This document shows, piece by piece, positions 32,801 to 38,800 of a stretch of DNA of 64,000 bases. How positions within the stretch are numbered: position 1 is the stretch's first letter; each line of letters begins with the position of its first letter. The stretch is from Malacoraja senta (Eukaryota): contig CM075982.1 of assembly GCA_038087875.1 (NCBI GenBank), forward strand, positions 33,356,001-33,420,000. Direction: 5' to 3'. A program made the position numbers.

Positions 32801-35800
32801 CAGAAATCAGACATGATTAAATGGCGGATTAGACTCGATGGGCCGAAAGTACTCATTTTATTCCGATAATTAATATCCTTAATTCCAGCGCACGGGTGTG
32901 TAACATGAAGATATACCAAGGTCTCTGCACCTGTGGATTGGAGGATAGCTAATGATACCCCACTTTTTAAGAAAGGAGAGAGAAAACAGGAAATTATAGG
33001 CCAGTCAGCCTGACATCAGTGGTGGGGAAGATGCTGGAGTCAATTAATAAAGATGTAATAGCGGCGCATTTGGATAGCAGTAACATGATCGGTCCAAGTC
33101 ACCATGGATTTATGAAGGGGAAGTCTTGCTTGAGTAATTTTCTGGAATTGTTTAAGGATGTACCAAGAAACATGGATAAGGGAGAGCCAGTGGATGTAGT
33201 GTATCTGGACTTTCGGAAAGCCGTTGACAAGGTCCTACACAGGAGATTAGTGGGCACAATTGGAACATATGGTATTGGGGGTAGTGTATTGACATGGAAA
33301 GAAAATTGGTTGGCAGACAGGAAACAAAGAGTAGGAATTAACGTGTCCCTTTCAGAATGACACGCAATTTTCTATGTGGTTATGTATCTTGTTGTTTTTT
33401 TAATGAATGACTGTTGGCAAGTCAAATTCCCTGTATGTTTACATACTTGGCTAATAAATTAATTTCAATAAGAATTCAACGACATTTAATTTGCCGTCAG
33501 CAGATTCTAAAGCGCCGGAAATCAGTCTCCGCCCACATAGGTTTCATGGCCCCTCCCAGTCATTGCATTCCGGTTAATAAAGACAACCAGAGGCTCTGGT
33601 TTCCAGGCACTGGAACCCGTACGGCTCCCGGACTTTGCAGTACAACACGAGTGGGTCTGAAGATTGGCTTCTCGCTGTGTTCGCCTGTCCGGAAGAATGG
33701 CCCCAGCGCTGCACCTTCTGTGGCCTCTGCTGCTGCTCCCAACAGGTGAGACTCGGGTTGGTTCACGACTGATTATCTGCAACGAGGCTCGTTAAAATCT
33801 CCACCATCATCGGTGGTCTACGCGTGTTTAGCCTTCTGTGGGCTCCAGATCACCCAGTCGTTTCATCCGTTCATAAGTGATAGGCCATTCAATCACGGTT
33901 CATCTATCTCTTTCTCCTAACCCCATTCTCCTGCCTTCTCCGCATAACCCCTGTCACCCGTACGAAACACGGATCTATCTATCTCTGCCTTAGATACATC
34001 CTTTAACTTGGCCTATACCGCCGTCTATGGCAATTAATTCACCTCCCTTGGACTAAAGAAACTCTTCATCATCTCATTCCTAAAGGAATGTCGTTCATTT
34101 CTGAGGCTTTGATTAAGGTTTTCATTGTGTTTTGTTGAAGGTCTCCTGGCGATCCCAGTCCTGAATCAGACATCAACGTCCGGACTTGTCTCCGTGGCAC
34201 AGACCGCTCGCTTAGAGTGTCGGATGCAGAACGGAAATGTTGCAAGTTACCATGTACATTGGTATCGACAGCGTCCCGGGGAGAGACCAGAGTGGGTGAT
34301 AAAGTATGAAACGGATAATGATATATTCCGTGGCAGTGGGATCACAGACCGGTTCCAACCGTCCAGAGATACCTCCGCCAACAGCTACACCCTGACCATC
34401 GGCACCCTGGAGCCCGGAGACGCCGCCGCTTACTACTGTGTCGTGTGGGAAAAAGGTGTGGGATACATCTTCGGCCCAGGGACTATCCTGGATATAAATA
34501 GTAAGTGACTCCCTCGTTCTGTTCCCATGAATTCCCTTTGCAGTCGTTCTCACTCCCCGGCGCTCGATGCATCCCCAGTCCGGGCACGCCGGACTTGTAT
34601 CTGCGCTCCGGAAAAACTTGCTCTACTCGGCGCGGGAGGCCATTCTGCCCATCGGGTCCGCGCCGTACGTCAGCGGTCGGGAGAGTATTCCCGCCCGCGG
34701 GGATTCCTGCATCGTTAACACAGTCGCAGTTCGCGACAATCAAACGCGTTAATGTTGGGGAAACAAGGAAGACAATTTGCAGGCATTGAGGAAAATACTG
34801 TGCATCGGGCTGGGCGAGTCGGTTAGAGAGTGTAATGGGAAAGGACGTGTTGGTGCGGGCTTGGGGTGTAATCCGGGATGATCTGGTCGCTTCCTCGTCT
34901 CTCCACCTCTCAATGGCTTGCGGAGCCGCGCTGCGTCCCACCGCTCCCCTTGCGTCACTTGACAGGGAATGTTGGATATCCGGAGGCCTCTCCGGTACCG
35001 GTACTTCCCGCCATAACTCCTTAAAGTAGGTGCGGCGCATTGGCTCACAGCGGTCGATATGTTGCCTCACTGCGCCAGATTTCCCGGTTCGAGCCTGACC
35101 TCGGGTGCTGTCTGTGTGGAGTTTGTACGTTCTCCCTAGAACTAGTGTGAACGGGTGAAATGGTCAGTGTGGACTCGGTGGGCCGAAGGGCCAGTTTCCA
35201 TGCTGTATCTCCTAAAATAGCAACATTCGCAAATTCACATTCAAGCGAATTCCAGAGCTGGGGAATTATTGAACCCCGCATTGAAGTCGTCTCGACAGAG
35301 CGACGTAAAACCGAGCGGAGCCGGGTGGAGGGACGGGGCCGGGGCCGGTGCCGGGGTGATGTTACTCAAGTGGGTCTGGAGCTCTCGGCCTGATGTTGGC
35401 TGCAAGGCGGCAGCTGCGATTAACCTGGGCCAGTCTTCATTAGCCGGCTTAGACCTGCTGGGTTGAATAGCCGCGTCGTTTACCGCAGGTTTCACGAATT
35501 GTTCGCGTCATCGACGGTCTTTTAGTTTTAGTTCTAGTTTTAGAGATATAGCGCGAAAACAGGCTCTTCGGCCCACCGAGTCCACATTGACCAAAGATCC
35601 CCGCAAACGAACACTACCCTACAAACACCAGGGACAATTTTACATTGATACAACTGTACATCTTGGGAGTGTGGGAGGAAACAGAAGATCTCGTAGAAAA
35701 CCAACACACGTCATGGTGATAAACGTACAAACTCCGTACAGACATGCACCTATATTTAGTATCCGACCCGGCTCTCTGGCGCTGCAAGACAATTGCTCTA

Positions 35801-38800
35801 CCGCTGCACCACCGCGCCGCCCAGTCTGTAACACTTTCCGTGGCCGAGTTCGTTTCTCTCGCGTTGGGGTCAGCGTCTGGCGCTGCCGACGGTCTCCATC
35901 AACTAATAATGTTTCTCTTCTCCTCCGCCTCTCTCCCCCACACAGGTAGCGAGTCTCGGAAACCCTCGCTTCTCCTGCTCCCTCCGTCCCCGGAGGAAAC
36001 TGGCACGGGCTCGGCCACACTCAGCTGCCTGGTGAGCGGCTTTAAGCCGGGCTTCGTGGCGCTGCGCTGGGCCGTGGACGGCGTGGAGACGGAGAGCGGG
36101 GTGACGACGGGCGCCGTGTCCCCGGACGCCGAGCAGACGTACAGGCTGAGCAGTTACCTGCGGGTTCCCGCCGCCGCTTGGGACAAGGGCACGAGCTATT
36201 CCTGCAGCGTAGGCCATAGCTCGCTGAGCTCGCCTCTGCGCCACACCATCTCGTCGTCCGCCTGCGCGAACTGAGTTCGAGCCGTTGGCATCGGCTGCCA
36301 ATTCTCTGCTATGTTTAACACAGAGACAGCTTCACTATGGTCTGCCGCCACCTTGAGCAATGTAACCTATAGCAATGTCCACTTCTGGGGACAACACGAA
36401 TATGTAATTATCTCGGAGATCAGTGCGAATTTCTTTGTAGATTTGTCTCCAGTTCCCTGTGTCTTACTGCCTCTGTCTGTAGAATGGGGGCAGATTCCTC
36501 TGCAGACAGTGATCGTGTTGTGATTGGAACTGATGTAACTCAGCTCTCAATAAAGAAGAAAAACTGCGGTGCTTCCATTGGTCTATTTTCACTCGGTTCC
36601 TCGCAGTACATTGAAGGGATTGACGTGGCGATCAAGAGCCGCCTTATACACAACTAAATTCAGTTCAGCTCAAACGGCTCATTCCGCTCCTCTTGATCAA
36701 TACCACTGTGTCTGCATCGACCTCTTCGCCCTCTCCCACCTGCCGCCATCTGCCGGTCCCTCTATTCTGCGTCCCGTCTCCCCTACCTCCATCGCAACCT
36801 CACGTGTTAAACCTACTCCCCATTTCCACCTACCCCCCCCCCACCCCCCCCCCCGCCTCCGCTCCCTCTGGATGTTAGATGCACAATCTCGCCGCTCTTT
36901 GGTCAAATTTGGGGGTGAGGCTGGGGATGGGGTAGGGGGGGTGTGGAGGTGGGGGACACACATGAAACACGGAGCTGGACTCTTCCGCTCTGATCCATCC
37001 GTCAAATGTTGTCCGTTCCGTTTGTAATCCGATGCACTCCAGGCACGTTGTTCGATTCTGAGGCTACCGACGCTGCAATATTCAATATGTCGGAGGGAGG
37101 GAAACATAATAACGTGACAAAAAGAAGCCGAAGTCGATCCTTCGGATCCGTGCGCTCATTGGACCATTCAACGTGATCATGGTTCACCCCTCAACCTCGT
37201 ACTGATTTCGCCAATGAACTCCCAGCCGTTATCTATAATTGTAAGGAAAGACACGCAATGCCGGAGTAACAAAGCTGCCCTGGAGCACGTGGGTAGGTGA
37301 AAATTCGGTTAGAGATCCTTCTTCAGATTTAGCTCAGAACCTATCCATGTTCTCCATGGATGCTATCCGACCCATTACCAATGTCTTTCCTTGGTAAACC
37401 AGCATCTGCAGTTGCTTGTTTGCAGTTGCCGCTATAAATGCACGAATTTCTCAGAACTTAGTAAGTGTGACGCTATCTCTCGGGAAACATTCGCTACTGA
37501 GGACAGAGTGAGTGAACACTAAAGTACACAAGAGCTGATCACCGGGTTGTGAATGTTTAAGAATGAACTGCAGATGCTGGTAAATCGAAAGTAGACAAAA
37601 ATGCTGGAGAAACTCAGCGGGTGAGGCAGCATCTATGGAACGAAGGAAATAGGCAACGTTTCGAGTCGAGTTCCTTCTTCAGACTGATGTGAGTGGGGGG
37701 GGGGGGGGGGGGAGAAGAAAGGAAGAGGCGGAGACAGTAGGCTGAGGGAAAGCTGAGAAGGAGAGCAGAAAGCAGGGACTACCTGAAATTGGAGAAGTCT
37801 AGATAGCCATGGGAGTCAGTGGGTGTCGGTCAGTACATCTACTTACTGACCGACATCAACTACTAACCCACTGACTCCCATGGCTATCTGGACTACATTT
37901 TATCCCACCCTGCATCCTGTAAGGACTCCATCCCCTACTCCCAATTCCTCCGTCTACGCCGCATCTGCGCCCAGAATGAGGTGTTCCACTCAATGGCATC
38001 GGAGATGTCCTCATTCATCAGGGAACGGGGATTCCCCTCTCCTATTACAGACGAGGCTCGCACCAGGGTCTCTTCTATACCCCGTAACTCTGCTCTCTTT
38101 CCCCAACCCCGACTCGTAACAAGGGCAGAGTACCCCTTGTCCTCGCCTTCCACCCTAGCAGCCGTCACATACAACAACTAATTGTCCGACATTTTCGCCA
38201 CTTCCAACGGGATCCCACCACTGGCCACATCTTCCCATCTCCTCCCCTGTCTGCTTTCCTGAGAGACCGCACCCTCCGTAACTCCCTGGTCAATTCGTCC
38301 CTTCCCACCCAAACCACCCCCTCTCCTGGCACTTTCCCTAGCAACCGCAGGAAATGCTACACTTGTCGCTTTACCTCCCCCCTCGATTCCATTCAACGAC
38401 CCAAGCAGTCTTTCCAGGTGCGGCAGAGGTTCACCTGCACCTCCTCCAACCTCATCTATTGCATCCGCTGATCTATGTGTCAGCTGCTCTACATCGGTGA
38501 GACCAAGCGTAGACTCGGTTCGCAATAACCAACATTATCTCCCGGTGGCTCAGCACTTCAACTCGCTCTCCCATTCCGAATCTGACCTTTCTGTCCTGGG
38601 CCTCATCCATGGCCAGAGTAAGGCCCAATGTAAATTGGAGGAGCAGCACCTCATATTTCGCTTGGGCAGTTTACACCCTAGCGGTATGAACATTGACTTC
38701 TCCAATTTCAGGTAGTCCCTGCTTTCTCCTCCCCTTCCCAGCTCTCCCTCAGCCTACTGTCTCCGCCTCTTCATTTCTTCTTCCCGCCCCCACCCTCACA

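What the first reader, a model, noticed from the sequence alone, without database searches (positions are those of the whole stretch)
33697..36274. Intact germline-joined VJ immunoglobulin light-chain gene
Seen: V runs in frame through a 10-residue CDR3 (VVWEKGVGYI) into FGPG with no RSS. Both introns are retained, so it is not a retrocopy. Splice phases are consistent and the ORF is 245 aa. Established: cartilaginous fish have germline-joined L-chain clusters attributed to RAG action in germ cells, reported for skate type I genes. Not new as a class, but this locus encodes a heritable fixed specificity that can diversify only by hypermutation.
Basis: partly seen in the sequence, partly recalled or inferred. 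Interest (0 to 1): 0.65.

Follow-up and report, generated by a model that had tools for sequence, protein, structure and literature searches.

The report
Skate germline-joined type I light-chain gene
This is an intact antibody light-chain gene of a skate whose V and J parts are already fused in the genome, a textbook oddity of skates described in 1995, so it is real but ordinary.

Summary
Three exons with GT-AG borders and matching phase 1 (leader 33697-33745, fused VJ 34141-34500, constant 35946-36274) sum to 738 nt, which is 245 codons plus a stop. V runs from the second cysteine through the 10-residue CDR3 VVWEKGVGYI straight into FGPG. No recombination signal lies within about 3 kb on either side.

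The VJ exon is a V-set domain and the last exon a C1-set domain. The nearest named protein is 'type I immunoglobulin light chain [Leucoraja erinacea]', 82% identical over VJ and 93% over C. The V region pairs with it on a tree at 100/97 support. This is therefore a type I (sigma-2, sigma-cart) light-chain mini-cluster of a skate.

Anderson et al. 1995 (abstract) reported at least 89 such clusters in Raja. All were germline-joined and expressed, and none was unjoined.

Two points remain open:
- Germline status cannot be proven from one assembly window.
- 'Fixed specificity' overstates what a fixed VL gives.

Novelty is nil as a class, and interest is low. I searched exon by exon and never joined the exons.

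The parts
33562..33581 (+). Putative promoter: near-octamer ATTGCAT (7 of 8 of the Ig octamer, which I recalled) at 33562 and a TATA-like TTAATAAA at 33574, 135 and 123 nt upstream of the ATG
   Evidence: This is weak evidence: the motifs are short, were not tested against chance, and function was not tested.
33697..33745 (+). Leader exon, 49 nt, 16 codons plus 1 base, phase 1 donor CAG|gtgaga; encodes MAPALHLLWPLLLLPT
   Evidence: It matches the N-terminus of P0001 (MAPALHLLWPLLLLLPTG) apart from one leucine fewer.
33746..34140 (+). Leader intron, 395 nt, GT-AG
34141..34500 (+). Fused VJ exon, 360 nt: FR1 to FR3, CDR3 and J (FGPGTILDIN) in one open frame with no RSS
   Evidence: Pfam V-set E = 3.8e-16. 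82% identical to skate type I P0001.
34440..34469 (+). CDR3 / V-J junction, VVWEKGVGYI (10 residues)
   Evidence: The skate P0001 has the same length (AVWENDVGII).
34501..35945 (+). J-C intron, 1445 nt, GT-AG, phase 1; holds interspersed-repeat fragments at 35083-35217 and 35532-35814
35946..36274 (+). Constant-region exon, 329 nt including TGA; C1-set domain with a Cys near the C-terminus (SSSACAN)
   Evidence: Pfam C1-set E = 1.3e-21. 100 of 108 residues identical to P0001.
36549..36554 (+). AATAAA polyadenylation signal, 275 nt after the stop
   Evidence: This is a motif only.

Best explanation
This is one mini-cluster (leader, VJ, C) of the type I light-chain isotype of a skate (family Rajidae). 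The isotype is also called sigma-2, sigma-cart or NS5. The gene is closest to Leucoraja erinacea. Its V and J segments are already fused in the inherited DNA, so a B cell can transcribe and splice it into a complete light chain without any RAG-mediated rearrangement.

Shown here:
- The gene is intact and has a cluster layout.
- No RSS is present.
- The isotype is assigned by similarity to a named type I light chain.

Inferred from the literature:
- The fused state is germline, and such genes are expressed.
- The join arose long ago by RAG-like recombination in germ cells.
- Diversity comes from the many paralogous clusters, from pairing with heavy chains, and possibly from somatic hypermutation. 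It does not come from junctional or combinatorial joining.
For: - Gene model and frame.
- Domain families: V-set and C1-set.
- Structures: PDB relatives are antibody V domains. The best-scoring stretch for the C exon lies in a light-chain constant part, which I recognise as lambda type from memory.
- Closest named protein: 'type I immunoglobulin light chain [Leucoraja erinacea]', 82% over VJ and 93% over C. An Amblyraja radiata model is 88% over C but only 61% over VJ.
- Tree: the window V pairs with the Leucoraja protein at 100/97 support.
- RSS: none around the gene.
- Copy number: only one V and one C in the 64 kb window.
- Extent: the unique core of about 33367-37551 is bounded by interspersed repeats, as expected of a self-contained mini-locus.
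- Comparative: 42 of 43 batoid protein rows encode V running straight into J, against 12 of 20 shark rows. One fused 489-aa model was left out. This fits 'joined in skates, split in horn shark'.
- Literature: Anderson 1995 abstract, Lee 2000 abstract and passages, and review passages.
Against: - Nothing in the window shows that the DNA is germline rather than lymphocyte DNA.
- Expression was not tested.
- The promoter evidence is only a 7-of-8 octamer match.
- RGYW/WRCY hypermutation hotspots are not enriched in the CDRs: 2 of 15 hotspot bases, density 0.028 against 0.046 in frameworks, p = 0.74. The sequence therefore gives no support of its own for targeted hypermutation.
- Differences from P0001 are only weakly concentrated in CDRs: 7 of 24 against 14 of 95 residues, p = 0.13.
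- No protein more than 82% identical over V was found, so this exact paralogue is not matched to a known cDNA.
- The batoid and shark rows are mostly automatic gene models that may have used RNA evidence. Their contiguity is indirect evidence about genomic DNA.
Confidence: 0.9

Rival explanations
1. The assembly captured a somatic VJ rearrangement from a B-cell clone, and the true germline locus is split.
For: A deletional somatic join would look the same in a single consensus sequence. Nothing can tell the two apart directly.
Against: - Any one rearrangement at one cluster is carried by a tiny share of cells, so a consensus assembly would show the germline form (inference).
- Anderson 1995 (abstract) found no unjoined type I gene in Raja among at least 89 clusters, and refers to genes joined in nonlymphoid cells.
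- 42 of 43 batoid rows, most of them gene models from genome assemblies, also read V straight into J.
Confidence: 0.02
2. The gene is germline-joined but silent or a decaying pseudogene, one of many clusters that is not used.
For: - Expression was not tested.
- The octamer match is imperfect.
- A LINE fragment ends only about 330 nt upstream of the ATG.
Against: - The frame is open throughout, and all splice sites and Ig landmarks are intact: two Cys pairs, Trp, FGPG and the C-terminal Cys.
- The C exon is 93% identical to the named skate protein.
Confidence: 0.08
3. It is a processed retrocopy or cDNA contamination of a rearranged light-chain transcript.
For: V and J are fused, as in an mRNA.
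Against: Both canonical introns are present, 395 and 1445 nt with GT-AG borders, and the J-C intron carries interspersed repeats. There is no poly(A) tract after the gene.
Confidence: 0

Closest known systems
Raja (Leucoraja) erinacea type I light-chain clusters (Anderson et al. 1995, J Exp Med 182:109; abstract seen)
   Same: Same isotype and same taxon group, with V and J fused and no RSS. The C exon is 93% and the VJ exon 82% identical to the named protein P0001. CDR3 length is the same at 10 residues.
   Different: This is a different paralogue: 21 of 119 VJ residues differ. I could not see that paper's sequences, text or gene maps, so intron sizes and sequence groups were not compared.
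Horn shark (Heterodontus francisci) type I light-chain clusters, germline-split
   Same: Orthologous isotype: 70-71% over C and 57-66% over V. J is similar (GYIFGPG in P0003).
   Different: The horn shark genes are reported as split V-RSS / RSS-J (Lee 2000 passage; review). Of the 12 horn shark protein rows, 7 do not read from V into J. Here V and J are fused.
Nurse shark NS4 (kappa, type III) germline-joined genes (Lee et al. 2000)
   Same: VJ fused in the germline, attributed to RAG-like recombination in germ cells (abstract).
   Different: A different isotype. NS4 is a mix of split and joined genes with recent joins. Skate type I is reported as entirely joined.
Nurse shark germline-joined sigma-2 chain that pairs with IgM1gj
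   Same: Same isotype, germline-joined, giving a predetermined VL (review passages).
   Different: In nurse shark it is one joined gene among a few loci and is used early in life. No such restricted role is known or tested for this skate gene.

Membership tests
Immunoglobulin light chain (V-set + C1-set, cluster type) | One V-set domain followed by one C1-set domain, with conserved Cys pairs, Trp41, the J motif FGXG and a C-terminal Cys | tested here: met
   Pfam V-set 3.8e-16 and C1-set 1.3e-21. The C-terminal ...SSSACAN is.
Immunoglobulin light chain (V-set + C1-set, cluster type) | Leader intron inside the signal peptide and a J-C intron, both phase 1 | tested here: met
   The junctions agree with protein P0001.
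Type I / sigma-2 (sigma-cart, NS5) isotype of cartilaginous fish | Closest similarity of both V and C to named type I chains rather than to other isotypes | tested here: met
   The top hit for both exons is 'type I immunoglobulin light chain [Leucoraja erinacea]'. The horn shark chains P0054 and P0056 fall in the same hit set. The tree pairs the window with P0001 at 100/97. No named type II, type III or sigma sequences were placed in the tree, so the exclusion of other isotypes rests on hit ranking.
Germline-joined light-chain cluster of skates | V and J contiguous in frame, with no heptamer-spacer-nonamer signals | tested here: met
   Direct reading. The RSS scan found 0 sites in 30700-39300.
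Germline-joined light-chain cluster of skates | The same fused configuration is present in non-lymphoid or germ-cell DNA | not testable with these tools
   This needs DNA from sperm or another non-lymphoid tissue. It is supported only by the literature.
Germline-joined light-chain cluster of skates | Expressed in lymphoid tissue | not testable with these tools
   No transcript data were available. Anderson 1995 reports expression for the family (abstract).
Processed retrocopy | Lack of introns, and a poly(A) tail | tested here: not met
   Two introns are present and there is no poly(A) tract.

The most novel reading that the evidence does not exclude
This gene, and perhaps the whole batoid type I family, may act as an innate-like, RAG-independent receptor chain. 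Its VL would be kept by selection for a predetermined binding surface, as proposed for the nurse shark sigma-2 partner of IgM1gj. It may also descend from very few ancient germ-cell joins. The junctions in batoids fall mainly into two CDR3 length classes, 8 and 10 residues (apart from one 11-residue row), and skates keep the shark-like 10-residue form ending GYIFGPG.
Probability: 0.1. Interest if true: 0.45.

Novelty: already known. Interest (0 to 1): 0.15.

Why it matters
Germline-joined antibody genes are the classic exception to the rule that antigen-receptor genes are assembled somatically. They are also evidence that RAG has acted in germ cells. This locus is a clean genomic example of the skate type I case, with its full context: one isolated mini-cluster of about 4 kb among LINE elements. 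It adds no new principle. Its practical use is as a reference locus for counting clusters, for dating the joins, and for measuring hypermutation against a germline sequence that has no junctional ambiguity.

Tried and rejected
Checks that found nothing:
- A second V, J or C in the window. tblastn with the VJ and C exon translations gave only the self hits. The next best were E = 0.029 and 0.59.
- RSS relics or a re-inserted signal. None lies near the gene, and the window count is at chance. The single exact heptamer, at 36704, has no nonamer partner.
- Hypermutation-hotspot enrichment in CDRs. Not found: 2 of 15 hotspot bases, p = 0.74. The only CDR serine uses AGT, but overall 3 of 8 Ser codons are AGY.
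- CDR-biased divergence from P0001. There is a trend only: 7 of 24 against 14 of 95 residues, p = 0.13.
- tRNA-like heads in the intron repeats. ARAGORN found none.
- Papers since 2015 on skate light-chain loci. The search listed 15 of 19 papers, and none was on the topic.

Checks that could not be completed:
- Listing the 13 members of the P0001 cluster, to compare the CDR3s of skate paralogues. This could not be done.
- A search for shorter partial V sequences. It found 1 protein among 5 candidates, and it was not a skate protein. The count of independent joining events within skates therefore stayed unchecked.
- The full text of Anderson 1995. Only the abstract and the reference list are held.

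Trees and dropped rows:
- The first tree dropped 10 of 41 hit rows through a too-narrow pattern. It was replaced by the 64-row tree, which left out only P0057.
- CDR3 length needs at least 11 changes on that tree. Many forks are unresolved, so this is not a count of joining events.

Full report
**What is there.** The stretch 33697-36274 on the + strand holds a three-exon gene.
- The leader exon 33697-33745 is 49 nt. It has A at -3 and G at +4 around the ATG and ends CAG|gtgaga.
- After a 395-nt intron comes a 360-nt exon, 34141-34500, bordered by ttgaag| and |gtaagt.
- After a 1445-nt intron with a long pyrimidine tract comes the last exon, 35946-36274, which ends in TGA.
- Both introns are phase 1. 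The lengths sum to 738 nt, which is 245 codons plus a stop.

The 245-aa figure is arithmetic, not a joined translation.

**The middle exon is a complete VJ.** Its translation carries Cys26, Trp40 and Cys99. The 10 residues VVWEKGVGYI (34440-34469) follow, and then FGPGTILDIN. Nothing separates V from J.
- A scan for heptamer plus 12/23 spacer plus nonamer found none in 30700-39300.
- It found 5 in the whole window, against 5.86 +/- 2.67 in shuffles.

**What it is.**
- Pfam calls the VJ exon V-set (E = 3.8e-16) and the last exon C1-set (E = 1.3e-21).
- Solved-structure relatives are antibody variable domains. For the C exon, the best-scoring stretch is a light-chain constant part.
- In the large protein set, the best hit of both exons is 'type I immunoglobulin light chain [Leucoraja erinacea]' (P0001). 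It is 82% identical over VJ and matches 100 of 108 residues over C.
- P0001 also reproduces my predicted splice junctions.
- An Amblyraja radiata model is 88% identical over C but only 61% over V. Stingray, manta, sawfish and shark models are lower.
- On a V-region tree of 64 rows, the window pairs with P0001 at 100/97 support.

The gene is therefore a type I light-chain cluster of a skate close to Leucoraja. The isotype is also called sigma-2, sigma-cart or NS5 (synonyms from review passages). The contig is not human.

**Context.**
- tblastn finds no second V or C in the 64 kb.
- A LINE fragment ends at 33366 and interspersed repeats resume at 37552. The unique core is therefore about 4.2 kb, with repeat fragments inside the J-C intron.
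- Upstream lie a 7-of-8 octamer match at 33562 and TTAATAAA at 33574. Downstream, AATAAA lies 275 nt past the stop. These are motifs only.

**How it most likely works.**
- The fused VJ exon is transcribed and spliced to C with no need for RAG. The gene structure makes this possible; it was not observed.
- That the fused state is germline, that such genes are expressed, and that they are 'potentially somatically mutated' comes from the Anderson 1995 abstract. That paper found at least 89 type I clusters in Raja, all of them joined.
- Later passages state that the horn shark homologue is split and the skate one entirely joined.
- The joins are attributed to RAG-like recombination in germ cells.

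**Comparative check.**
- 42 of 43 batoid protein rows read V straight into J, against 12 of 20 shark rows. P0057 was left out.
- Of the 12 horn shark rows, 7 run from V into non-J sequence or skip J.
- These rows are mostly automatic gene models, so the support is indirect.

- Hypermutation hotspots are not enriched in the CDRs: 2 of 15 hotspot bases, p = 0.74.
- Divergence from P0001 is only weakly CDR-biased: 7 of 24 against 14 of 95 residues, p = 0.13.
- A fixed VL is not a fixed antibody specificity. Heavy-chain pairing and the choice among many clusters still vary.

**Rivals.**
- *Somatic rearrangement captured by the assembly.* The window alone cannot exclude this. It is very unlikely, given how consensus assemblies are built and what the literature reports.
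- *Retrocopy.* The two introns exclude it.
- *Silent gene.* This remains possible, because expression was not tested.

**Left unchecked.**
- The CDR3s of other skate paralogues. could not be made, and one search found only one non-skate protein.
- The full text of Anderson 1995. Only the abstract is held.
- Any paper supplements.
- The closed metagenome and viral collections, which are not relevant to a fish gene.

**Verdict.** This is a real, intact skate type I light-chain gene with V and J fused. It is a well-known kind and of low interest.

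Noticed in passing
window 47881-51201 (-) and 52077-56049 (+): Two long, apparently intact non-LTR retrotransposon copies lie in opposite orientation. ORF2 carries endonuclease and reverse-transcriptase domains (988 and 1106 aa open frames). The + copy has an upstream ORF1 with a GDSL-esterase domain. Many truncated copies lie elsewhere, for example at 845-2742, 28603-29418 and 62673-63998.
   Followed up: partly
window 4107-5046; also 2753-2900 and 29839-29937: A 48-bp tandem repeat, 19.7 copies at 89% match in the largest array, recurs next to LINE fragments.
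   Followed up: no
window 35083-35217 and 35532-35814; copy at 61526-61820: Interspersed (SINE-like) repeat fragments lie inside the J-C intron, including a 57-bp inverted pair at 35161-35217 and 35538-35593. ARAGORN finds no tRNA-like head.
   Followed up: partly
window 37591-37799 and 38695-38897: A 209-bp inverted repeat pair, 91% identical, lies about 1.3 kb downstream of the gene. It belongs to a family with up to 9 other fragments in the window.
   Followed up: no
window 14165-15098: Two overlapping open frames match RNase H (E = 4.5e-09 and 9.3e-05). They are probably a decayed LTR-type retroelement.
   Followed up: no
window 8863-9075 and 30289-30687: Two N runs of 213 and 399 bases, flanked by simple and low-complexity repeats. 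They were left as they are.
   Followed up: no
window 34143-34499 versus 35948-36271: The C exon is much more GC-rich (0.69) than the VJ exon (0.54), and most 2-kb bins of the window are 0.36-0.54.
   Followed up: no
proteins P0034, P0037, P0050-P0053, P0057 (horn shark); P0062, P0063 (Chiloscyllium): Automatic gene models of shark type I chains read from the V end into non-J sequence or splice V directly to C. This is what one expects where V and J are split in the genome.
   Followed up: partly
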